Origin: Phascolarctobacterium succinatutens
Lineage (GTDB): Bacteria > Bacillota > Negativicutes > Acidaminococcales > Acidaminococcaceae
Direction of reading: 5' to 3'
Length of the DNA stretch: 64,000 nt
Assembly (NCBI RefSeq): GCF_958453765.1
Contig: NZ_CAUDZA010000001.1
Span: forward strand, 150,675 to 214,674
Each line of letters begins with the position of its first letter. The stretch's first letter is position 1. Both the position numbers and the translations under genes were made by a program. Below are positions 4,866 to 34,333 of this stretch, piece by piece. Under the pieces are notes generated by a model. That model saw nothing but the letters and a program-made list of their open reading frames with translations. It searched no databases and was not told the DNA's origin.

Positions 4866-6395
4866 ATGAAGCAGACAATCTATCAATATGTAAACAGCCA
4901 TCTGGACGAGCATGGCCGCTTTACTGCTACCAATCTGTGCGATGACCGCTACGCCACCATTCCCCGTCCCCTTGGCTCCGAGGATGCCTTTCACTATACA
5001 ATGGGCAACCTGCCCAATCCCAAATCCGCCAGCATACTGCTGAAGCTGCTGCAGGCTTATCTGAAGGAACCTACCACCAAGCAGCGCAGCAAACTGTACA
5101 ATGAACTGAAGGGCATGGCCTTTGCGGAATATTGCGATCCCTTTATTGAAGCCTTAGACCAAAATGATATCAACAGTGTTGCCTTTGATCTGGCGCGACG
5201 CTTTTTCTACAACGCCGACGGACGTGAGCAGGTAAAATTCGCCCTGCTGCTTTTCGGCATGTACGGCATGGAAAAAATTTGTCAGCAGGAGCCGGAGCTG
5301 TGGCAGGATTTGCTGCGCATAGCACACTGCGAGGAATTTACCTTCGCCTTTTTATATTCCTGCCGCGTAACTAATTTCAACCCGCAAAACGCTATCTGGG
5401 AGCTTATCCGCTGCACCAGCGGCTGGGGCAAGGTTTTCAGCATTACCGACTGCCACTGCCGTGATGAGGAGGAACGCCTCTGGCTGCTGCAAAACGGTCC
5501 CGATATCGACGTAGAATATCCGCCGCTGTCCGTCAAATTCATCAGAGAAACACATTTAGAGGAACAGCTGGCACATCCGCTTAACTACGCACAGTATAAA
5601 AGCGCTGTCATCATCGTGGGCAATTATCTGATTATGCTCAACCATTTCCCGGCAGAGGTAATCGAAGAGCAGTTCAACATCAGCGATATCCATCTGAACA
5701 AGCTGCTTACATGTCTGCTCAAGCAGGCGGAAGTACATGTCAGCAAACCGGAGGATGTACTGGACTTAATCAGCTACGTTACAGCGCTGCAGCAGCTTTG
5801 CGATGAGCAGAACCATATGCAGCTCACGCTTAACCAATGCCATGAGCAGATTGCCGCCTGCGAAAAAATCATCTACCGCAAGGACTGGCAGCCTGAAATA
5901 GAAAATAATTTAATCAAGGATGATAAGCTCGATTACCAGCTGTGCAACCTGGCAGTGGAGCTTGATATAGACATTTGGCCGCGGCTTTTCGATTTTTGGC
6001 TGGCGCATCCGGACGAAACACCGCTGTTCCCGTACCTGCTTTCCTACGAAGGCGAGCAGCGCTCCGAACGCGTGCTACGTCAAATAGAATCAGACCTGCC
6101 CCGCTACTGCGTAGAACAAAACGACCTGCTGGTACCGCTGCGTTATCTCAACACACATCCAGGTGAAAGCGATGCTATTATCTGCGCTGCCCTGGAATCT
6201 ATCTTCGATTTGCCGCGCGGCATCGCCTGCGGCATTGTCGATGACTGGGGACAGGAATTTATCACGCCTGCCATCCGCCGCTCGCTGATTAAAGCACGTC
6301 AGCTCAGCAATAACGATGTAGTTACCGCGCGTATCGACTGCCTGCTGGCAGGCAAGCATTTCGAAATCGGCAAGTTCCTCAACAAACGCAAATAA
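4866..6395 (+). CDS. hypothetical cytoplasmic protein (about 510 aa, Cys-rich, no recognisable domain)
   Basis: Long ORF with RBS GAGGTG 7 nt before the ATG at 4866; bounded by terminators on both sides and apparently carrying its own promoter; I see no TM segment and no motif I recognise. Confidence 0.6.
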   Translation: MKQTIYQYVNSHLDEHGRFTATNLCDDRYATIPRPLGSEDAFHYTMGNLPNPKSASILLKLLQAYLKEPTTKQRSKLYNELKGMAFAEYCDPFIEALDQNDINSVAFDLARRFFYNADGREQVKFALLLFGMYGMEKICQQEPELWQDLLRIAHCEEFTFAFLYSCRVTNFNPQNAIWELIRCTSGWGKVFSITDCHCRDEEERLWLLQNGPDIDVEYPPLSVKFIRETHLEEQLAHPLNYAQYKSAVIIVGNYLIMLNHFPAEVIEEQFNISDIHLNKLLTCLLKQAEVHVSKPEDVLDLISYVTALQQLCDEQNHMQLTLNQCHEQIAACEKIIYRKDWQPEIENNLIKDDKLDYQLCNLAVELDIDIWPRLFDFWLAHPDETPLFPYLLSYEGEQRSERVLRQIESDLPRYCVEQNDLLVPLRYLNTHPGESDAIICAALESIFDLPRGIACGIVDDWGQEFITPAIRRSLIKARQLSNNDVVTARIDCLLAGKHFEIGKFLNKRK

Positions 6396-8502: not shown

Positions 8503-9873
8503 TTAAGCTTCTTCGCCGCCAATAACTTCCAATAATTCTGCTGTCTTCGCAGCAAGCAGCTCCTTATCACCCTTAGTTTCTACGTTCAGGCGCATTACAG
8601 GCTCCGTATTGGATACACGCACATTAAAGCGCCAGTTATCATAAGCAACGCTCAGGCCGTCCAGGTGATCCTGCTCGCCGTCAGCATATTTTTTGCCCAG
8701 CTCTGCCAGTACTGCTGCGGAATCAGCAACCTTGCGGTTGATTTCACCGCTGCAGGGATACATAGCAACGCGCTCGCCTACCAGCTCGCTTAGCTTTTTG
8801 CCGCTGCGGCACATCAGCTCGGTAACCAGCAGCCAGGGAATCATGCCGCTGTCGCAGCAGGAGAAATCGCGGAAATAATGATGCGCACTCATCTCGCCGC
8901 CGTACAGCACGTCATTGTTGCGCATGCATTCCTTCATAAAGGCATGGCCGCTCTTGCAGCGCACAGGCACACCGCCGTCACGCTGCAAAATAGCTTCCGT
9001 ATTCCAGGTCAGGCGCGGGTCGAACATAATCTTCGCACCCGGCTCCTTGTGCAGGAAAACCTCCGCCAGCAGGCCGACAATGTAATAGCCTTCGATAAAA
9101 TCTGCCTTCTCGTCAAAAAGGAAGCAGCGGTCGAAATCACCATCCCAAGCAATACCCAGATCAGCACCACTCTCGCGCACAACCTTGGCCGTAGCCTCAC
9201 GATTTGGCAGCAGCAGCGGGTTAGGCACACCATTGGGGAAGGTGCCGTCAGGCGTTTCGTTCAGCGTAATAAACTCAAACGGCAAATGCTTAGCCAGCTC
9301 CTTCAAAATCGGGCCAGCACCACCATTGCCGGGGTTAGCAACAATCTTCATCGGTTTGAGCACACTCGTATCAACGTAAGTCAGTAAATGCTCAATATAA
9401 GCAGGCATAATATCCAGCTGCTCCAAGGCACCCATAGTCTTGCCTGCTACCACCTGATGTGCAAACGGCTTTGTAGTAGCAACCATCTCACCAATTTCCT
9501 TCAGACCGGTATCGCTGGAAATAGGACGCGCATCACGACGCACCAGCTTCATGCCATTGTATTCCTTAGGATTATGGCTGGCAGTAACCATAATACCGCC
9601 ATCTGCTTTCAGATGCGCGGTAGCAAAATAAATCATTTCTGTACCACACTGGCCGATATCAATAACCTTGGTACCGCCATGGCGCAGTCCCTCTGTCAGC
9701 GCATCTACCAATGCTCTGCCGCTCAGGCGGATATCGTGTCCGACAACAACAGTTTCCGCAGCGAACATTGCTGAAAAAATGCGTCCTATACGGTAAGCCA
9801 TTTCCTCGTTAACTTCTGTGGGATAAACGCCGCGTACATCGTAGGCCTTAAAAGCCTTGTTCGTAACTTGCAT
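8503..9873 (-). CDS. phosphomannomutase / phosphoglucomutase
   Basis: Alpha-D-phosphohexomutase active-site motif TASHNP and the start MQVTNKAFKAYDVRG; forms a manB-galU-galE operon on the minus strand. Confidence 0.9.
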   Translation of the reverse strand: MQVTNKAFKAYDVRGVYPTEVNEEMAYRIGRIFSAMFAAETVVVGHDIRLSGRALVDALTEGLRHGGTKVIDIGQCGTEMIYFATAHLKADGGIMVTASHNPKEYNGMKLVRRDARPISSDTGLKEIGEMVATTKPFAHQVVAGKTMGALEQLDIMPAYIEHLLTYVDTSVLKPMKIVANPGNGGAGPILKELAKHLPFEFITLNETPDGTFPNGVPNPLLLPNREATAKVVRESGADLGIAWDGDFDRCFLFDEKADFIEGYYIVGLLAEVFLHKEPGAKIMFDPRLTWNTEAILQRDGGVPVRCKSGHAFMKECMRNNDVLYGGEMSAHHYFRDFSCCDSGMIPWLLVTELMCRSGKKLSELVGERVAMYPCSGEINRKVADSAAVLAELGKKYADGEQDHLDGLSVAYDNWRFNVRVSNTEPVMRLNVETKGDKELLAAKTAELLEVIGGEEA

Positions 9874-9948
9874 TTCTCTATTCTCCTTTTTTTATAGTGT
9901 ATTTAGCAAAATTTCATTGTTCAAGAACCATTTTATATTATTCTTCAT

Positions 9949-9985
9949 CAAACAAAAAAATCCTGCCTGCATTGCAGACAGGATT
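9949..9985 (-). terminator. terminator after the HNH gene (minus strand)
   Basis: Hairpin atcctgcctgc...gcagacaggat followed by a U-run on the minus-strand transcript. Confidence 0.6.
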
Positions 9986-9991
9986 TAAATG

Positions 9992-10771
9992 CTACAGCTT
10001 TGCTCCGCTCGAACGGATAACTTCTTCCGCTGCCTCACCCAGATACCAACGGATAACGGAAAAGAACGGCAGCGTCACGCCATTATAATCAGGCACCAGA
10101 CAGATGGTCGCCAGCATTTCCAGAACTTCATCCAGCTCACGGCCCTTACTAAGCTCATCACTTATCTGGTCCTCCAGCGTATGGATTACCTCTCGGCGCA
10201 TACGCATCAGCCGCGGCGCATTCAGATTCAGCTCGTGGATAGTGCTGCGCGCCTTCCCCTGCAAATCTTTGGGGCAGGTATCTTCGTCTACATACATCCG
10301 CCCGCTATGCTCGGCATAGCGGAACAGGCGGATTTTGCCGGGAATCTTCAGCGGATTGAGAATATAGTTTGTAATTTCACGCCCACCCTTCGGCACATCA
10401 CAGCTACGGTCCCGCTTCTGGCTGGAATAGCGCCACTCGGGATCAGGCACATACGGCTGACTGCCGCCGTGGCATACGCCCAACAGATTGCGCCAATCCA
10501 GATGATAGTTGTGCCCATGCTCCTGCGTAGCATTTTTCGGATAAAAATGCTCCACGCGGAAGTCGTCAACCTCGCCTTCCTCCTCCGCCAGCTTAATGCC
10601 TACCTCACAATAGGCGCAAAGGCCGTGCTGGTCACGCAAAATTGCTTCCCGCACCTGTTTATAACCCCTGCGGCAGCGACGGCGGAAATGCTCCCAGGTT
10701 TCCTCGGGATTATGCAGCCTGTACTGCCTGAGAAGCTCAGGTTCTTCCTTGCTTTTATAAACACGTTTCAT
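9992..10771 (-). CDS. HNH-family nuclease, PtuB-like (Septu candidate, TIGR02646-like)
   Basis: About 260 aa starting MKRVYKSKEEP; HNH core CAYCE...VDDFRVEHFYPK...HNYHLDWRNLLGVCHGG; its ATG overlaps the stop of the upstream ATPase (ATGA), so the two are translationally coupled; the longer upstream ORF extension in the track is not used. Confidence 0.7.
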   Translation of the reverse strand: MKRVYKSKEEPELLRQYRLHNPEETWEHFRRRCRRGYKQVREAILRDQHGLCAYCEVGIKLAEEEGEVDDFRVEHFYPKNATQEHGHNYHLDWRNLLGVCHGGSQPYVPDPEWRYSSQKRDRSCDVPKGGREITNYILNPLKIPGKIRLFRYAEHSGRMYVDEDTCPKDLQGKARSTIHELNLNAPRLMRMRREVIHTLEDQISDELSKGRELDEVLEMLATICLVPDYNGVTLPFFSVIRWYLGEAAEEVIRSSGAKL

Positions 10772-12084
10772 GAGCGCCTCCTGCGGAACTGACGCATACG
10801 GATATCCATATCCGCACGCAGCAGAGCAGGCTCCTTGCCCTTGGACCATTTATCCAGCTTTTTGCGCAGCTCCAGCGCCTCCGGCGTATCCCAGGCATCC
10901 TCGCTCACCAGCTGCAGATAACGCTTTAAATCCTGCACAATCGGCAGAGCTTGCGGACGTGGGCTCACATTCTGAATATCCTGCAGCAGCTGATAGCTGT
11001 TGGCACCCAAGGAAAAATCTACGTGGCGCACGCCTTCGAACTGCTTGCCCCAGGCCAATACACGTATGCTCTCTGCCGGCACGCTGCTAAGCACCTGCGC
11101 ACTATGCGTAGTCACTACAAACTGTACCATCGGGAAGGTTTTCTGTAAATCCAGCAGTACCGTCTGCTGCCACAGCGGGTGCAGATGCATTTCTACCTCA
11201 TCAATCAATACAAGCCCCGGAGTCTTGGTTACCGCATCCTCACGCAGCTGCGGATTCAGACGCGCCATGCGATAGGCCAGGTCAGCCACCATGCTGATAA
11301 TACTGCGGAAGCCGTCGCTCAATTCATCTACCACCATTTCACCCATATCGGGATGACTGACAACAAAGCATTTCAGGCGATAATTATAATACAAATCACG
11401 CAGGCCGGTACTTTCCAGACACACGTCTACAGCGTTCTGAATCGCATTCTTCAGCATCACATTGCGCTTCACCTCTGCGCTGTACTGCTGCTCTGACTGC
11501 GCACACTTGGTAACGTACTCAAACCATTTTCCGAAGGTGCTGTAGGAAGAAGACGGCTCCAGACATTCCTCGTAGCCTACATTGCGTTCCATCAGCGATT
11601 TATGAAAATTTGTCATCAGCTTGCTGTCTACCCAAATGCGCTGAGTACCGTAATAGGCCAGCACCGGCAGCAGCCTGTTGCCGTTCTCCTTGGCATCGTG
11701 CGCCAATGCACAGCCACGTTCGCACAGCTCATCAGCATCATCCTCAGGCACATTACACTCCAGCAGGCGGCGGGTACAGGTAAGCTTTTTGCCGTAAACC
11801 TCACCCTCCAGCTTAATTTCTACCGGATAATGGCATTCCATACCATCAATATGACGCATATCCTTTTTATAAACAGGCACACGTCGCACATCCTGGGGAG
11901 TAATTTGCCGGCCACTGGCATCAAAGCTGCGCAGATAGGGCTCCAGAGCAATTGCCAGCGCATCAAAAATCGCCGTCTTGCCCTTGCCGTTTTCACCTAC
12001 AATAACTGTCAGCCTAGGTTCAAAATCAATATCAAGCTCATCGTAACAACGGAAATTCTTCAGCCTTAATCTTTCTATCTGCAT
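10768..12084 (-). CDS. AAA_21/ABC-type ATPase, PtuA-like (Septu candidate)
   Basis: 438 aa; N-terminal RecF/SMC-like start MQIERLRLKNFRCY with Walker A GENGKGKT; Walker B and H-loop LVLIDEVEMHLHP; VVTTHS near the C-terminus; promoter-like TGcTATAAT and RBS GGAGG upstream. Confidence 0.7.
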   Translation of the reverse strand: MQIERLRLKNFRCYDELDIDFEPRLTVIVGENGKGKTAIFDALAIALEPYLRSFDASGRQITPQDVRRVPVYKKDMRHIDGMECHYPVEIKLEGEVYGKKLTCTRRLLECNVPEDDADELCERGCALAHDAKENGNRLLPVLAYYGTQRIWVDSKLMTNFHKSLMERNVGYEECLEPSSSYSTFGKWFEYVTKCAQSEQQYSAEVKRNVMLKNAIQNAVDVCLESTGLRDLYYNYRLKCFVVSHPDMGEMVVDELSDGFRSIISMVADLAYRMARLNPQLREDAVTKTPGLVLIDEVEMHLHPLWQQTVLLDLQKTFPMVQFVVTTHSAQVLSSVPAESIRVLAWGKQFEGVRHVDFSLGANSYQLLQDIQNVSPRPQALPIVQDLKRYLQLVSEDAWDTPEALELRKKLDKWSKGKEPALLRADMDIRMRQFRRRRS

Positions 12085-12259
12085 AATCTGACCTCCGTTT
12101 CTGTATCTCTGCTTACATTATAGCATTATTTACATCCCATACTAAGATTTTTTACAGTTTTATTATGATTTTTTTGTGGCAGGGTGTATAATAAATAAAC
12201 ATCATCAGCAATTACTTGGTACTTGCCAACAATTACGCAATCGAAAGGAAAAACTGTTT

Positions 12260-13471
12260 ATGAATATATTTCTTCTGCTTACAATCGCCATGCTCATGAT
12301 TATCCTCATGCTGCGGCGTCACATCCCCATCGGCCCCTGTATGCTCACCAGCGGTATTTTTATCTGGCTGATGAAAGCACCGGAGCTGCCGTATCTGGTG
12401 CAGGCATTACGCGAAACCTTAACAATGCCGCGCACCTATGATATTCTTTTTGCCCTTTATTTTGTCATGTGCCTGGAAATCGAGCTGCGCACCAGCGGTG
12501 CATTGGCAGGTATGGTGCAGGCGCTGCAGCGCATCTTTTCCAGCGCTAAGGTAACCCTGGCCGTGATGCCTGCCTTCTTAGGACTGCTGCCGTCGTTGGG
12601 CGGCGCACGCTTCTCGGCTCCCATTGTAGAGGAAGCCAGCAAAAATCTGCCTATCGAACAAGACCACAAGGCAGCCATCAACTTCTGGTTCCGCCACATC
12701 TTTGAATTTTCCAGCCCGATTATCCCCGGTATGATTATGGCCTGCAACATCGCCGGTGTCAGCTACGGTGAATTTATTCTGCATCTGGCCTGGCTCACCG
12801 TCCTGGCCTTCGCCGCCGGCTGGTTTGTCCTCATCCGCCCCATTAAAGCAGATAATAACCGTACCGAAACCATTGCCAATGACAGTCAGTGTACACAGGA
12901 TTTATGGTTGGCGCTCTCGCCTGTCATTATCACCTTTATTCTCGTAGTATTCTGCAGCTTTAATGCCTCCGCCGGCATGGGCCTGGTCACAGCCTGCCTG
13001 TTTCTGGTCCTGCGCTTTACTAAGCGTGAGGTCGGTCTCAAGGATGTTGTTATCGGTGCGCTGGACATCAAAATGTTTCTCAATGTGCTCTGCATCCTCT
13101 ACTTCATTCAGATCTTGACCGTCACCCACGTGCTGCAGGAAATCGTCGCAGCCTTCCAAAGCTCTCCGCTGCCGGTGCCTGTTATCATCGCCTGCGTCAG
13201 CTTCATCATCGGCGTGCTTACAGGTATGTCGCAAGGACACGTGGCCATCGTTATGCCCATTGTCGCCGCTATGCAGACAGGCAGCCTGAACCTGGCCGGC
13301 GTTGCCATGGCCTTCGGTATTGCCGGACAAATGCTTACCCCGACGCATATGTGTCTTGTTATCACCGTCGATTATTTTAAAGCCAACTTTTTCAAAACGC
13401 TTAAGCCAGTCCTGCTTTGCGAAATCATCATTCTGACTCTCTTTACAGCTTATACATATTTCACATGGTAA
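12260..13471 (+). CDS. polytopic membrane protein, putative permease (DUF401-like)
   Basis: About 403 aa, highly hydrophobic with more than 10 predicted TM segments; start MNIFLLLTIAML with RBS AAAGGA; family assignment is from memory and weak. Confidence 0.5.
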   Translation: MNIFLLLTIAMLMIILMLRRHIPIGPCMLTSGIFIWLMKAPELPYLVQALRETLTMPRTYDILFALYFVMCLEIELRTSGALAGMVQALQRIFSSAKVTLAVMPAFLGLLPSLGGARFSAPIVEEASKNLPIEQDHKAAINFWFRHIFEFSSPIIPGMIMACNIAGVSYGEFILHLAWLTVLAFAAGWFVLIRPIKADNNRTETIANDSQCTQDLWLALSPVIITFILVVFCSFNASAGMGLVTACLFLVLRFTKREVGLKDVVIGALDIKMFLNVLCILYFIQILTVTHVLQEIVAAFQSSPLPVPVIIACVSFIIGVLTGMSQGHVAIVMPIVAAMQTGSLNLAGVAMAFGIAGQMLTPTHMCLVITVDYFKANFFKTLKPVLLCEIIILTLFTAYTYFTW

Positions 13472-16117: not shown

Positions 16118-16312
16118 ATGAAATTTAAAGAACTGGAAAAGCTACTGAAAAAAGCCGGTTGGACATTATATTCGACCAGAGGCTCCCACTTTTATTACGT
16201 ACATCCACGCCAGTCTAATAAAGTAACTGTTCCTAACCATAAGGGAGATATTCCCATAGGCACAGTTAAAGCTATTTTCAAACAAGCCGGTTTAGATTTT
16301 CAGAAAGGGTGA
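16118..16312 (+). CDS. hicA: type II toxin HicA (mRNA interferase)
   Basis: 64 aa; MKFKELEKLLKKAGWTLYSTRGSHFYYVHPRQSNKVTVPNHKG is a typical HicA/YcfA-like dsRBD-fold toxin with the conserved His; RBS AAAGGAG; extended -10 TGaTACAAT upstream. Confidence 0.85.
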   Translation: MKFKELEKLLKKAGWTLYSTRGSHFYYVHPRQSNKVTVPNHKGDIPIGTVKAIFKQAGLDFQKG

Positions 16313-16316
16313 TTTT

Positions 16317-16730
16317 ATGTTATCAATGTATCCTGCGTGCTTTTATAAAGAAAAAGACGGACAATACACCGTAATTTTCCCAGACCTTAACCACCTGGCA
16401 ACCTGTGGTACGGATTTACAAGATGCTATGAAAATGGCAACAGACTGCCTTGCCGGCTTTCTTTACGAAGCAAAGCTCAGCAATGAAGCTGTTCCGGCAC
16501 CATCTGAATTAAACACTATTGACGTTAACGAAGAATATAGCGATTACGCAGAAGCCTTTGTTAATATAGTAAGTGTTGATGTAGAAGCATATGCCAAAGA
16601 GCACTTTACCAAAGCAGTCAAAAAAACTCTCACCATCCCCAAATGGTTAAATGATGCGGCAATTGCCAAAAAGCTGAACTTCTCCAAAATTTTACAGGAT
16701 GCTCTCAAGCACGAGCTCAATATCGGATAA
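16317..16730 (+). CDS. hicB: type II antitoxin HicB
   Basis: 137 aa; ...YPACFYKEKDGQYTVIFPDLNHLATCGTDLQDAMKMATDCL is a HicB/UPF0150 N-terminal fold; starts 4 nt after the hicA stop. Confidence 0.8.
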   Translation: MLSMYPACFYKEKDGQYTVIFPDLNHLATCGTDLQDAMKMATDCLAGFLYEAKLSNEAVPAPSELNTIDVNEEYSDYAEAFVNIVSVDVEAYAKEHFTKAVKKTLTIPKWLNDAAIAKKLNFSKILQDALKHELNIG

Positions 16731-26323: not shown

Positions 26324-26408
26324 TGGTGCGAGTGACAGGAATCGAACCTGCACGCCGAAAGGCGCTAGATCCTAAGTCTAGTGCGTCTGCCAGTTCCGCC
26401 ACACTCGC
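26324..26408 (-). tRNA. tRNA-Leu (anticodon TAG)
   Basis: 85-nt cloverleaf by hand folding: GCGAGTG acceptor stem, long variable arm, T-loop GGTTCGATTCC, anticodon loop CTTAGGA, 3' CCA encoded. Confidence 0.85.
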
Positions 26409-26500
26409 ATATAAAATATTATATCATAACAAGAACATCTATGGCAACTGTCCATGTAAACAAAAAGCCGTCCTTCTTTCGAAGAACGGCCTTAAATTCG

Positions 26501-26576
26501 TGGTGATCCACCCGAGACTCGAACTCGGGACACCCTGATTAAAAGTCAGGTGCTCTACCAACTGAGCTAGTGGATC
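26501..26576 (-). tRNA. tRNA-Lys (anticodon TTT)
   Basis: 76 nt; GATCCAC/GTGGATC acceptor stem, anticodon loop CTTTTAA, T-loop GGTTCGAGTCC, CCA encoded. Confidence 0.85.
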
Positions 26577-26578
26577 AT

Positions 26579-26654
26579 TGGCTGGGGCGGCTGGACTCGA
26601 ACCAACGCATGCGGGAGTCAAAGTCCCGTGCCTTACCGACTTGGCTACGCCCCA
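26579..26654 (-). tRNA. tRNA-Gln (anticodon TTG)
   Basis: 76 nt; TGGGGCG/CGCCCCA acceptor stem, anticodon loop CTTTGAC, T-loop GGTTCGAGTCC, CCA encoded; lies 2 nt from tRNA-Lys. Confidence 0.8.
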
Positions 26655-26696
26655 AGCTTATTAGTGGTTATTCAGATTCATCCAAATCTGAAAAGG

Positions 26697-26773
26697 TGGG
26701 GTGACTGGTGGGAGTCGAACCCACGCGTAACGGAGCCACAATCCGCCGTGTTAACCACTTCACCACAGCCACC
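26697..26773 (-). tRNA. tRNA-His (anticodon GTG) with an encoded G-1
   Basis: 77 nt; extra 5' G paired to the discriminator C, anticodon loop TTGTGGC, CCA encoded. Confidence 0.85.
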
Positions 26774-32740: not shown

Positions 32741-34333
32741 ATGTATATCCCTAAACTGCATAAAATCTGGCTTTGTCAAAACGACAAGGGCGGTATCTAT
32801 ATGTATCCCAAAATGGCAAATCGTCACGGCCTGATTGCCGGTGCTACCGGTACAGGCAAAACCGTTACGCTCAAGGTGCTGGCAGAAAGCTTCAGTGAAA
32901 TGGGCGTACCTGTTTTTCTGGCTGATATCAAGGGCGACGTTTCCGGTATGTGCCTACCCGGTGAGGACAGCGAAGGCTTCCGCAAGCGCTTAAGAAACAA
33001 GCTGGGTCTGGAAACGGAATGGAAATTCGCCGGTTATCCGGTACGCTTCTGGGACGTTTACGGCAAGGGAGGCATTCCCGTACGCGCTACCGTTTCGGAA
33101 ATGGGACCTGATCTGCTCAGCCGTCTGCTGGAGCTGAACGAAACTCAAAGCGGTGTAATGAATATTGTTTTCCGCGTAGCAGATGACCAAGGCCTGCTGC
33201 TGTTGGATTTCAAGGATTTGCGCAGCATGGTGCAATACGTCGGTGATAACGCAGCCCAGTTCAAGACCAGCTACGGCAATATCACTCCCGCCAGCATCGG
33301 TGCTATCCAAAGAGCTTTGCTGCGTCTGGAGGATCAGGGTGCGGATATTTTCTTCGGCGAACCGGCACTTGATATCAAGGACTGGTTTGCTACGGCAGAA
33401 GACGGCCGCGGCGTTATCAATCTGCTGCACGCTACAGAACTGTTCCAACGCCCGCTGCTCTACTCCACCTTCTTGCTGTGGATGCTTTCCGAGCTCTACG
33501 AAATGATGCCGGAAGCAGGCGATTTGGATAAACCCAAGATGGTCTTCTTCTTCGACGAAGCACATCTGATTTTTAAGGATGCACCGCAATCCCTTTTGGA
33601 TAAGATTGAACAGATTGTCCGCCTCATCCGTTCCAAGGGCATCGGTATTTACTTTATCACCCAACAGCCTACAGACGTACCCGAAAGTGTACTGGCACAG
33701 CTCGGCAACAAGCTGCAGCATGCACTGCGCGCCTACACTCCCAAGGAACGCAAGAGCCTTAAAGCTACCGCACAATCCTTCCGCGAAAACCCGGCATTAG
33801 ATGCCGAAGCAGCCTTAGGCGAGCTTGGTACAGGCGAGGTGCTTGTTTCTATGCTGGACCCCGAAGGTATTCCTTCTATCGTACAGCGTGCCTATGTAAT
33901 GCCGCCGCGCAGCTATCTTGGCGTGTGCGACGATAATAAACGCCAGCAACTGATTAAGGACTGCCCGCTCTACAGCAAATATGCAGAAGCTGTTGACCGT
34001 GAATCCGCCTACGAGCTGCTGACACAAAAGGCAGAAGAGGCACATGCGGAAGCCGAAGCGGCAGCGAAGGCTGAAGCTGAAGCGAAGGAAGCAGCGCTGA
34101 GAGAAAAAGAAGAAGCTAAGCAGGCCAAGGAAGCAGAACGTGCTGCCAAAGCTGCGGAACGTGAGCGCATTGCAGCAGAACGTGCTGCTCAAAGAAGCAG
34201 CGGCCGCCAAACCAAGAGCGTGTTGGACAAGGTATTTGACAGCGCCGTTAATTCCGCTACCCGCACAGTCGGCAGCCAAATCGGCAGCAAGCTGGTACGC
34301 GGTATTTTAGGAAGTCTTTTTAAAGGTAAATAA
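32741..34333 (+). CDS. DUF853-family NTPase (YjgR/HerA-like P-loop ATPase) with a C-terminal Lys/Ala/Glu-rich coiled tail
   Basis: 530 aa; Walker A GATGTGKT near the N-terminus; Walker B/DE ([11 protein letters not shown]); C-terminus [34 protein letters not shown]; RBS AAGGAGGA. Confidence 0.7.

What the first reader, a model, noticed from the sequence alone, without database searches (positions are those of the whole stretch)
9949..12180. Translationally coupled AAA_21 ATPase + HNH nuclease operon: a Septu-like (PtuA/PtuB) anti-phage candidate inserted between core sugar-nucleotide genes and a permease
Two minus-strand genes are arranged ATPase then nuclease, with the ATPase stop and nuclease start overlapping (ATGA). 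The ATPase has a RecF/SMC-like N-terminal Walker A (GENGKGKT), a Walker B/H-loop (LIDEVEMHLHP) and TTHS. The partner is an HNH protein with CAYCE ... EHFYPK ... HNYH ... WRNLLGVCHGG (TIGR02646-like). That architecture is the one described for Septu. The pair has its own promoter and terminator and is flanked by unrelated housekeeping genes (manB-galU-galE on one side, a permease on the other), as expected for a small defense-gene insertion. Together with the nearby HicAB module it suggests a modest defense islet. The ATPase is shorter than many PtuA proteins, so the family assignment is not certain.
Basis: partly seen in the sequence, partly recalled or inferred. Interest (0 to 1): 0.6.

Follow-up and report, generated by a model that had tools for sequence, protein, structure and literature searches.

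The report
Vertically inherited Septu (PtuAB) defence operon
These two overlapping genes are a clear member of the known Septu anti-phage system (PtuA ATPase plus PtuB HNH nuclease), but they are an old, vertically inherited fixture of the gut genus Phascolarctobacterium and its nearest relatives, not a recently inserted defence islet.

Summary
Two minus-strand genes, ptuA (10768..12084, 438 aa) and ptuB (9992..10771, 259 aa), overlap by ATGA. They have their own conserved -10 box and a strong terminator.

The Septu assignment holds. PADLOC PtuA1 and PtuB1 models match full length (E 5.8e-141 and 1e-105). PtuA aligns end to end with E. coli Septu PtuA (PDB 8EE4, E 2.4e-70). PtuB passes TIGR02646, and its AlphaFold model matches only PtuB structures. 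No reverse transcriptase or msr/msd RNA is present, and PtuA lacks the retron-type N-terminal extension. It is therefore stand-alone Septu, not a type I-A retron.

The "small defence insertion / islet" reading does not hold. GC content equals the flanks. All 10 distinct same-species contigs carry the pair. Ten other species, out to Ca. Avacidaminococcus (manB 65% identical), have intact orthologues; nine keep the DUF401 | ptuA-ptuB-manB order and one has the block inverted. PtuA, PtuB and manB trees share 8/8 splits. omega is about 0.05-0.14.

HicAB, 4 kb away, is the real variable insertion.

Verdict: an ordinary new member of a known family with an unusual evolutionary history. The mechanism (ATP-gated PtuA6:PtuB2 nuclease complex causing abortive infection) is inferred from homologues, not shown.

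The parts
10768..12084 (-). ptuA: Septu ABC/SMC-type ATPase, 438 aa. Walker A is G30-T37 (K36). The signature is LSDGFRS. Walker B is LVLIDE followed by MHLHP, and the H-loop is TTHS. A fast-evolving insert covers res 51-143 and 193-235. The conserved C-terminal region is res ~346-438.
   Evidence: PADLOC PtuA1 PDLC00278, E 5.8e-141, covering 1-436 of 438. Pfam AAA_15, AAA_23 and AAA_21. PDB 8ee4_A PtuA, E 2.4e-70, over res 1-431. Motifs invariant in 11 species. omega 0.045-0.14. Region-specific rates.
9992..10771 (-). ptuB: Septu HNH nuclease (TIGR02646 family), 259 aa. It carries CAYC (C52, C55), the catalytic-type VEH75F, HNYHLDWRN95LLGVCH101GG, DRSCDVPK, and a helical C-terminal domain.
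   Evidence: PADLOC PtuB1 PDLC00349, E 1e-105, covering 1-256. TIGR02646 scores 95.6 bits against a cutoff of 52.15. PDB retron Ec83 HNH E 3.3e-23, and E. coli Septu PtuB 8ee7_C E 2.8e-5. The AF2 model has pLDDT 84, and the top 11 Foldseek PDB hits are all PtuB. Length is exactly 259 aa in all 11 species.
10768..10771 (-). ATGA stop/start overlap (translational coupling of ptuA and ptuB). The ptuB Shine-Dalgarno AGGAGG lies at 10782..10777, inside the 3' end of ptuA.
   Evidence: Sequence read. The 4-nt overlap is conserved in 10 of 11 orthologous loci. RBS-like GGAG motifs lie upstream of ptuB in most orthologues.
12092..12125 (-). Likely ptuA promoter -10 element (TGcTATAAT, 12125..12117) and ptuA Shine-Dalgarno GGAGG (12096..12092).
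   Evidence: Sequence. A TATAAT-like -10 hexamer about 30-35 nt upstream of the ATG is present in all 11 species, in an otherwise diverged spacer. It was not reported by the consensus scan because no good -35 is present. The transcription start is inferred, not shown.
9948..9986 (-). Intrinsic terminator of the ptuAB operon. A 13-bp stem (AAATCCTGTCTGC / GCAGGCAGGATTT) with a 3-nt loop is followed by TTTTTGTTT. It separates ptuB from manB.
   Evidence: Hairpins with the same CCTGC...GCAGG stem and a T-run follow ptuB in most of the other species.

Best explanation
This is a stand-alone (type I) Septu system, a bicistronic, translationally coupled ptuA-ptuB operon.

By homology to E. coli Septu, PtuA (an ABC/SMC-family ATPase) is expected to oligomerise and to dock PtuB (an HNH nuclease) through its conserved C-terminal region. 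This would form a PtuA6:PtuB2-type complex that is held inactive while ATP is bound. Phage infection (a phage protein cue and/or a fall in ATP) would release the HNH activity. The nuclease would then nick or cut DNA, or deplete tRNA-Tyr as shown for other Septu and retron PtuAB systems. The result is stalled phage replication by growth arrest or abortive infection.

Shown here:
- Family membership and operon anatomy.
- Intact catalytic motifs.
- Absence of retron parts.
- Purifying selection.
- Strict vertical co-divergence with the host across the Phascolarctobacterium / Ca. Avacidaminococcus clade.
- A fast-evolving insert in PtuA between the two ATPase lobes, which is a candidate sensing surface.

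Inferred, not shown: complex stoichiometry, ATP gating, the trigger, the substrate, and the anti-phage phenotype itself.
For: Family membership:
- Full-length PADLOC PtuA1 and PtuB1 matches, E 5.8e-141 and 1e-105.
- AAA_15/AAA_21/AAA_23 on the ATPase.
- TIGR02646 above its curated cutoff.
- End-to-end alignment to E. coli Septu PtuA 8ee4 at E 2.4e-70, with Walker A, signature, Walker B and H-loop aligned.
- The PtuB model matches Ec83 PtuB (E 1.7e-10, TM 0.68/0.70) and E. coli Septu PtuB 8eea_G (E 6.5e-9, TM 0.67/0.74). All top 11 hits are PtuB.

No retron parts:
- No Rfam hit in the operon, and only four tRNAs in the whole window.
- No RT domain among the called neighbours.
- PtuA residue 3 aligns to residue 66 of Ec78 PtuA, so the retron-specific N-terminal extension is missing.
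- The signature motif LSDGFR lacks the Gln that Ec78 PtuA has (Q361). It resembles stand-alone EcSeptu, which has LSDGLR (PMC12819146).

The genes are functional:
- Intact in 11 species, with PtuB always 259 aa.
- Catalytic motifs are invariant.
- omega is 0.045-0.14.
- The C-terminal region of PtuA is conserved, with 0.72-0.74 mean identity. The equivalent part of PtuA docks PtuB in solved complexes (PMC12819146).

Literature on the mechanism of homologues:
- 6:2 complex, DNA nicking, ATP inhibition (PMC12640716 and PMC12819146, summarising Li et al. 2024).
- tRNA-Tyr variable-loop cleavage, and loss of defence in Walker A/B and H-N-H mutants (PMC13096335).

Arms-race-like signature:
- dN is 2-4 times that of manB/galE.
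- omega reaches about 0.6 in PtuA res 51-143, against <=0.11 in the ATPase core.
Against: - No experiment on this or any Negativicutes Septu was found in the library.
- The genomic context gives no support for defence. The pair is not in a variable island, has no neighbouring PADLOC hits, shows no compositional anomaly, and is fixed and vertically inherited. That is atypical for abortive-infection systems and would also fit a cellular role.
- The retron-specific NCBIfam equivalogs PtuA and PtuB are below their cutoffs: 272 bits against a cutoff of 500, and 139.8 against 150. This is expected for a non-retron Septu.
- Pfam HNH models do not hit PtuB.
- The substrates of PtuAB homologues differ between systems (DNA nicking, ssDNA, tRNA-Tyr), so the substrate here cannot be inferred.
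- Li et al. 2024 could not be read directly.
Confidence: 0.78

Rival explanations
1. Domesticated PtuAB: the pair descends from Septu but now serves a host (housekeeping or dual) function in this clade. Examples would be DNA-damage or replication-fork processing, tRNA quality control, or policing of resident mobile elements. On this reading that role explains why it is fixed and co-diverges with the genome.
For: - Intact in all 11 informative species, and next to manB in 10 of them, across manB divergence down to 65% identity.
- No empty site in 10 distinct conspecific contigs.
- PtuA, PtuB and manB NJ trees share 8/8 splits.
- GC content equals the flanks.
- Constitutive-looking conserved promoter.
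- No close relative on IMG/VR viral contigs.
- The PtuA N-terminus resembles RecF/Rad50/SbcC heads.
Against: - The closest characterised relatives by far are defence proteins.
- The nearest relatives outside the clade sit in unrelated, island-like contexts, for example beside a DruE-like helicase or next to Fic and RNA-ligase genes.
- The pair evolves 2-4 times faster than its neighbours, and one domain reaches omega about 0.6. This fits conflict better than housekeeping.
- The pair is absent next to manB in Acidaminococcus, Selenomonas and Pelosinus, so it is not a general Negativicutes core function.
Confidence: 0.12
2. One reading: a recently acquired, mobile mini defence islet (Septu plus HicAB) dropped between housekeeping genes.
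For: - The pair is a self-contained unit with its own promoter and terminator.
- It is flanked by unrelated genes.
- A HicAB module lies 4 kb away.
Against: - Vertical co-divergence with manB, with identical tree topology.
- Present in every related species and strain examined.
- No GC anomaly.
- No repeats, integrase or tRNA at the borders. The only tRNAs in the window are at 26.3-26.8 kb.
- HicAB is separated from the pair by DUF401, an SSF symporter and a membrane protein. It has its own low-GC signature and is missing from L009, so the two modules have independent histories.
Confidence: 0.03
3. Effector half of a type I-A retron ("type II Septu", as in Ec78/Ec83), controlled by an RT-msDNA antitoxin.
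For: - NCBI names the PtuB orthologues "retron system putative HNH endonuclease".
- The best PDB sequence hit of PtuB is the retron Ec83 HNH protein, E 3.3e-23.
- The PADLOC retron models ATPase_I-A and HNH_I-A also hit, at 2.3e-82 and 7.4e-45.
Against: - No RT ORF within +/-10 kb.
- No msr/msd or any Rfam hit in 9800..12400, even at E<=1.
- The upstream spacer is only 172 nt and holds two divergent promoters.
- PtuA lacks the roughly 63-aa N-terminal extension and is 438 aa against 550 aa.
- The retron equivalog HMMs are below cutoff and cover mainly the C-terminal half of PtuA.
- Stand-alone PtuA1/PtuB1 models score far higher.
Confidence: 0.02
4. A different ABC-ATPase/nuclease defence system of similar outline (Gabija GajA/OLD, PARIS AriAB, AbiEii-like AAA_21).
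For: - Shared ABC ATPase head.
- Pfam AAA_21 is described as "putative AbiEii toxin".
- An OLD-family protein, 6p74, hits the first 55 residues at E 4.7e-8.
Against: - These hits cover only the P-loop head.
- No TOPRIM or DUF4435 domain was detected.
- The partner is an HNH protein of the TIGR02646 family.
- The 25 best PADLOC hits for the ATPase are 24 PtuA models plus the retron I-A ATPase.
Confidence: 0.02

Closest known systems
E. coli stand-alone Septu PtuAB (PDB 8EE4/8EE7/8EEA; Li et al. 2024, as summarised in PMC12819146 and PMC12640716)
   Same: - Same two-gene order, ATPase then HNH.
- PtuA aligns over its full length (E 2.4e-70) with identical Walker A, signature, Walker B and H-loop layout. 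Both lack the signature-motif Gln (LSDGFR here, LSDGLR there).
- The PtuB fold matches 8eea_G with TM 0.67/0.74.
- No retron parts.
   Different: - Overall sequence similarity to 8EE4 PtuA is modest outside the ATPase motifs.
- PtuB sequence similarity to EcSeptu PtuB is weak (E 2.8e-5). It is closer in sequence to Ec83 PtuB.
- The host is a Negativicute.
- The locus is clade-core and vertically inherited.
- The 6:2 assembly, ATP inhibition and DNA nicking are untested here.
Septu Ec-B88 (PMC13096335)
   Same: PtuA/PtuB architecture. The Walker A/B and H-N-H residues that are essential there have invariant counterparts here: K36, D295/E296, and PtuB H75/N95.
   Different: That system cleaves the tRNA-Tyr variable loop on T6 infection. 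The substrate and trigger here are unknown.
Type I-A retrons Ec78 (Eco7) and Ec83 (Eco4), also called "type II Septu"
   Same: - Homologous PtuA and PtuB.
- Ec83 PtuB is the best PDB sequence match of this PtuB (E 3.3e-23).
- The conserved PtuA C-terminal extension and PtuB C-terminal domain form the docking interface (PMC12819146).
   Different: - No RT, ncRNA or msDNA.
- PtuA lacks the N-terminal extension and is about 110 aa shorter.
- Retron PtuAB is constitutively toxic and is neutralised by RT-msDNA. A stand-alone PtuAB must be self-restrained.
Gabija GajA / OLD-family nucleases and Rad50/SbcC/RecF ABC ATPases
   Same: ABC ATPase head with an insertion between the Walker A and Walker B lobes. 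Nucleotide-regulated nuclease logic, with GajAB inhibited by ATP (PMC12819146).
   Different: Similarity is limited to the first 50-65 residues or so. The nuclease here is a separate HNH protein, not a fused TOPRIM or an Mre11/SbcD partner.

Membership tests
Septu (stand-alone, type I; PtuA + PtuB) | PtuA: ABC/SMC-type P-loop ATPase (AAA_15/AAA_21) that matches PtuA profiles over its full length | tested here: met
   PADLOC PtuA1 at 5.8e-141, covering 1-436 of 438. Pfam AAA_15, AAA_23 and AAA_21 above cutoffs. 8ee4 PtuA at 2.4e-70.
Septu (stand-alone, type I; PtuA + PtuB) | PtuB: HNH nuclease of the TIGR02646 family with an intact catalytic His/Asn | tested here: met
   PADLOC PtuB1 at 1e-105. 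TIGR02646 scores 95.6 bits against a cutoff of 52.15. H75, N95 and H101 are invariant in 39 homologues and in the 11 orthologues. Fold matches to PtuB structures only. Pfam HNH models themselves do not hit.
Septu (stand-alone, type I; PtuA + PtuB) | Adjacent, co-oriented ptuA then ptuB in one operon | tested here: met
   ATGA overlap, conserved in 10 of 11 species. One -10 box upstream and one terminator downstream.
Septu (stand-alone, type I; PtuA + PtuB) | No associated reverse transcriptase or msr-msd (distinguishes it from retron I-A / type II Septu) | tested here: met
Septu (stand-alone, type I; PtuA + PtuB) | PtuA6:PtuB2 assembly with ATP-inhibited nuclease activity | not testable with these tools
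   Indirect only. The PtuA C-terminal region and the PtuB helical C-terminal domain are conserved.
Septu (stand-alone, type I; PtuA + PtuB) | Confers phage resistance | not testable with these tools
   Needs an experiment. No paper on Phascolarctobacterium Septu was found.
Septu (stand-alone, type I; PtuA + PtuB) | Typical (not defining) context: variable defence island, patchy distribution | tested here: not met
   Intact in every related species and strain examined and co-diverging with manB. No PADLOC hits in the neighbours.
Type I-A retron (Ec78/Ec83) | Retron reverse transcriptase gene in the locus | tested here: not met
   No RVT-type protein among the called genes within +/-10 kb.
Type I-A retron (Ec78/Ec83) | msr-msd non-coding RNA | tested here: not met
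   Rfam at gathering threshold on the whole window, and at E<=1 on 9800..12400, gave no retron RNA. A novel msr not in Rfam cannot be formally excluded, but the 172-nt spacer is occupied by two promoters.
Type I-A retron (Ec78/Ec83) | PtuA with an N-terminal extension and msDNA-binding elements; passes the NCBIfam NF041760 equivalog | tested here: not met
   Residue 3 aligns to residue 66 of Ec78 PtuA. NF041760 scores 272 bits against a cutoff of 500.
Gabija / OLD family | TOPRIM nuclease domain fused to the ABC ATPase | tested here: not met
   No TOPRIM hit in Pfam. The OLD structure 6p74 matches only res 3-55.

The most novel reading that the evidence does not exclude
Septu has been fixed for the whole history of the Phascolarctobacterium / Ca. 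Avacidaminococcus lineage because it has taken on a cellular role there (or a dual role), rather than being retained purely as an anti-phage abortive-infection module. Possible roles are a constitutive ATP-sensing nuclease acting on damaged DNA, on tRNA, or on resident mobile elements. A weaker version: it is a rare case of a defence system kept by vertical descent over family-level divergence. That would imply a very long-lived phage pressure, tracked by the fast-evolving PtuA insert.
Probability: 0.12. Interest if true: 0.6.

Novelty: new member of a known kind. Interest (0 to 1): 0.27.

Why it matters
As a gene call it adds little. PADLOC or DefenseFinder would label it Septu automatically, and NCBI already names the nuclease a TIGR02646/"retron system" HNH protein.

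Two points are worth keeping:
- It corrects the context argument. This defence-type operon is not an insertion but a clade-core, co-diverging locus, while the neighbouring HicAB is the mobile piece. Small self-contained units flanked by housekeeping genes should not be read as recent insertions without comparative evidence.
- It gives a clean natural series of 11 or more orthologous Septu pairs of graded divergence from an abundant human-gut genus. The ATPase core and the PtuB-docking tail are conserved, and one PtuA insert evolves fast. This is useful for mapping the still poorly defined sensing surface of stand-alone Septu, and for asking why some lineages keep an abortive-infection system permanently.

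Tried and rejected
- **Retron hypothesis.** Rfam at gathering threshold on the whole window and at E-value threshold on the locus, plus Pfam annotation of all neighbours, found no RT or msr/msd. Rejected.
- **Compositional island test**. No GC deviation for ptuAB. The deviation lies at HicAB instead.
- **Search for empty sites.** Look-up of contigs carrying the identical manB and of related species via manB found none within the clade. A look-up with my DUF401 ORF failed because the public gene call starts one codon later.
- **Mobility test.** A scan of IMG/VR with PtuA found only a 42-residue P-loop match.
- **Other defence genes nearby.** PADLOC and NCBIfam on the two unannotated neighbours (the 509-aa ORF and the 197-aa membrane protein) and on eight other window ORFs gave no defence hit except weak HerA/mad8 matches. 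Those matches belong to a HerA_C/DUF853 ATPase 20 kb away.
- **Apparent truncated PtuA.** The 259-aa members of the PtuA cluster turned out to be PtuB sequences, a clustering artefact.
- **Primary paper.** Li et al. 2024 (PMC12318543) is not held. Its results are cited only as summarised by later papers.
- **Literature search** for Phascolarctobacterium plus Septu returned only irrelevant "septum"-type matches.
- **dS saturation.** dS is saturated for most inter-species pairs, so omega is reported only where dS is below about 2. No formal site-model test for positive selection was possible.
Full report
**1. The observation**

The region holds two minus-strand ORFs.
- ptuA runs 12084..10768 and encodes 438 aa. 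Its ATG is preceded by GGAGG at 12096..12092.
- The longest downstream ORF starts at 10849. Comparison with ten other species shows the real start is the ATG at 10771..10769. Every orthologue begins MKR/MKK there, and every one is exactly 259 aa.
- That ATG overlaps the ptuA stop (ATGA, 10771..10768) and is preceded by AGGAGG at 10782..10777.
- The 4-nt overlap is kept in 10 of 11 loci, which fits translational coupling.
- A 13-bp-stem, T-tailed hairpin at 9986..9958 follows ptuB. Similar CCTGC...GCAGG hairpins follow ptuB in most of the other species.
- Upstream of ptuA, the element that recurs at the same position in the diverged 106-187-nt spacer is a TATAAT-like -10 hexamer (window 12122..12117, with TG at 12125..12124). 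It lies about 32 nt before the ATG (L013 reads TATACT).

**2. What it is**

PADLOC gives full-length matches to the Septu models:
- PtuA1 PDLC00278, E 5.8e-141, covering residues 1-436.
- PtuB1 PDLC00349, E 1e-105, covering residues 1-256.

Other family evidence:
- Pfam finds AAA_15, AAA_23, AAA_21 and SMC_N on the ATPase, and nothing on the nuclease.
- NCBIfam places the nuclease in TIGR02646, at 95.6 bits against a cutoff of 52.15.
- The retron-specific equivalogs PtuA (272 bits against a cutoff of 500; the best-scoring stretch lies in the C-terminal half) and PtuB (139.8 against 150) fall below their cutoffs.

Against the PDB:
- PtuA aligns end to end with E. coli stand-alone Septu PtuA (8ee4, E 2.4e-70). 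It aligns only in two pieces with the 550-aa retron PtuAs.
- PtuB's best sequence hit is retron Ec83 PtuB (E 3.3e-23), followed by E. coli Septu PtuB (E 2.8e-5).
- An AlphaFold2 model of PtuB (39-sequence alignment, pLDDT 84, pTM 0.84) retrieves only PtuB chains as its top 11 Foldseek hits. These include 9e8z_B (E 1.7e-10) and 8eea_G of E. coli Septu (E 6.5e-9, TM 0.67/0.74).

The 438-aa length is normal. Most of the 150 listed relatives, among 1,679 representatives at 50% identity that match at E<=1e-30, are 430-470 aa long.

**3. Not a retron**

Type I-A retrons reuse PtuAB, so this had to be excluded.
- Rfam finds only four tRNAs in the whole window, and nothing in 9800..12400 even at E<=1.
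- None of the genes within +/-10 kb is a reverse transcriptase.
- PtuA starts where Ec78 PtuA is already at residue about 64-66, so the RT/ncRNA-binding N-terminal extension is missing.
- The ABC signature reads LSDGFR, without the Gln found in Ec78 PtuA (Q361). Stand-alone E. coli Septu has Leu at this position (PMC12819146).

**4. Context and history**

- The organism is a Phascolarctobacterium. The exact PtuA is WP_210685078.1 of strain Marseille-Q4147 (chromosome CP072874.1), and it occurs in many human-gut assemblies.
- GC content of the pair (0.51-0.55) equals that of the flanks.
- All 10 distinct contigs that carry the identical manB also carry the 438-aa and 259-aa genes upstream, as do the 8 places found through PtuA.

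I used manB to fetch one genome per related species and ran tblastn with the window's proteins.
- The order DUF401(-) | ptuA ptuB manB (galU) galE is found in L009, L013-L017, L019 and L020. L010's contig ends inside ptuA but shows ptuA-ptuB-manB-galU-galE.
- L012 has lost DUF401.
- In L011 the DUF401-ptuAB block is inverted about 3.7 kb from manB.
- The series reaches Ca. Avacidaminococcus (family Acidaminococcaceae), where manB is 65% identical.
- The pair is absent within 10 kb of manB in Acidaminococcus, Selenomonas and Pelosinus.

Identities fall in step along the series. PtuA goes from 97% to 46% as manB goes from 99% to 65%. Neighbour-joining trees of PtuA, PtuB and manB share all 8 of 8 internal splits. 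This is vertical co-divergence, not repeated insertion into a hotspot.

The genes are under purifying selection. omega is 0.045-0.14 for PtuA and 0.066-0.115 for PtuB where dS is unsaturated. They still accumulate amino-acid changes 2-4 times faster than manB/galE.

Divergence is concentrated in PtuA residues 51-143 and 193-235, with mean identity 0.24-0.38 and omega up to about 0.6. This is the insert between the Walker A lobe and the signature/Walker B lobe. The ATPase core and the C-terminal 90 residues stay at 0.72-0.83.

Outside the clade the nearest relatives (45% and 40% identical) lie in unrelated, island-like settings. One sits next to Fic and RNA-ligase genes. Another sits beside an 1,841-aa DEAD/Helicase_C/MZB (DruE-like) protein. 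No close relative is on IMG/VR viral contigs.

**5. The "islet"**

- The neighbours are polyamine biosynthesis genes, an SSF symporter, DUF401, sugar-nucleotide genes and pyruvate carboxylase.
- The two unannotated neighbours have no PADLOC or NCBIfam hit.
- HicAB is real (Pfam). It lies 4 kb away in a low-GC stretch (0.35-0.40) and is missing from the closest other species, L009.
- HicAB is therefore an independent, recent insertion. ptuAB is ancient.

**6. Mechanism (inferred)**

From the literature on homologues:
- Stand-alone E. coli PtuAB forms a 6:2 "inflammasome-like" complex whose DNA-nicking activity falls with rising ATP. It is thought to be triggered by phage proteins (PMC12819146 and PMC12640716, summarising Li et al. 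2024, which I could not read).
- PtuB docks through a helical bundle with the PtuA C-terminal extension (PMC12819146).

Here every corresponding motif is intact and invariant:
- PtuA: K36, D295/E296, MHLHP, TTHS.
- PtuB: C52/C55, H75, N95, H101.
- Both docking regions are conserved.

I therefore take the most likely mechanism to be an ATP-restrained PtuA oligomer that holds PtuB. On infection it would release or activate the HNH nuclease against DNA and/or tRNA. The fast-evolving PtuA insert is the candidate sensor. None of these steps is shown for this locus.

**7. Rivals**

- The main live alternative is domestication to a cellular role (about 0.12). The core, co-diverging status favours it. 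The elevated evolutionary rate, the defence-island context of outgroup relatives, and the absence from sister genera count against it.
- The retron, Gabija/OLD/PARIS and "recent islet" readings are each contradicted by specific tests (sections 3-5).

**8. Verdict**

This is a confident, ordinary new member of the Septu family that automatic defence annotators would find. Its one less ordinary aspect is long-term vertical inheritance at a fixed locus across a genus-plus clade of gut Negativicutes. Interest is low to moderate.

Noticed in passing
window 16118..16730 (+): HicA (64 aa) and HicB (137 aa) toxin-antitoxin pair in a low-GC stretch (0.35-0.40). It is absent from the closest other species L009, where the flanking membrane-protein and CN-hydrolase genes are only 188 bp apart. 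One conspecific contig (L005) lacks a hicA call. This module, not ptuAB, is the variable insertion.
   Followed up: partly
window 4866..6395 (+): 509-aa ORF convergent with galE, with no Pfam, NCBIfam or PADLOC hit. It is present in conspecific contigs and in L009 (93%), but tblastn does not detect it in L010-L020. It is a lineage-specific orphan of unknown function.
   Followed up: partly
window 11104..11124 (-), PtuA residues ~325-331: The window's PtuA reads TTHSAQV just after the H-loop, while all ten other species have TTHSPQV. This is a lineage-specific Pro-to-Ala change next to a catalytic motif. The same Ala appears in the conspecific fragments P0034 and P0086.
   Followed up: no
window 12181..12200 (intergenic, both strands): The conserved motif TTATTATACAC (minus strand) reads TATAAT on the plus strand at 12187..12192. 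It is present in most orthologous spacers and is probably the -10 box of the divergent DUF401 gene. The 172-nt spacer would then hold two back-to-back conserved promoters.
   Followed up: partly
L011 2778..6247 and L012 6132..9881: These are the only rearrangements of the locus in the clade. In L011 the DUF401-ptuA-ptuB block is inverted and lies about 3.7 kb from manB, and galU is missing after manB. In L012 DUF401 is lost and the SSF symporter abuts ptuA.
   Followed up: no
window 32741..34333 (+): 530-aa HerA_C/DUF853-type ATPase (Pfam PF05872, E 1.7e-212), with weak PADLOC hits to mad8 and HerA models only. It lies next to a CorA-like transporter gene and thiamine biosynthesis genes. No partner nuclease was seen.
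   Followed up: partly
proteins P0244, P0254, P0350: Proteins of about 1,270-1,300 aa that carry a PtuA-like module (37-40% identical) at their C-terminus. These are apparent fusions of PtuA to a large N-terminal region.
   Followed up: no
L093 279..7967: A 40%-identical PtuA with a 254-aa downstream gene sits directly upstream of an 1,841-aa DEAD/Helicase_C/MZB protein (DruE-like). This is a typical defence-island setting and contrasts with the window's locus.
   Followed up: no
L089 7229..8865 and L090 1062..2698: The closest PtuA outside the clade (45% identical) is followed by only a 97-aa ORF where ptuB should be. This may be a truncated or decayed partner.
   Followed up: no
protein cluster of P0001: The 90%-identity cluster holding PtuA also lists 259-aa sequences that are in fact PtuB. 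This is a clustering artefact that could mislead counts of truncated PtuA. P0034 (298 aa, 7 members) is an N-terminally shortened PtuA call on a 26-kb contig. It may be a frameshifted allele or an assembly error.
   Followed up: partly
window 26324..26772 (-): Cluster of four tRNA genes (Leu-TAG, Lys-TTT, Gln-TTG, His-GTG). These are the only Rfam gathering-threshold hits in the window. No tRNA-Tyr gene is in the window.
   Followed up: no
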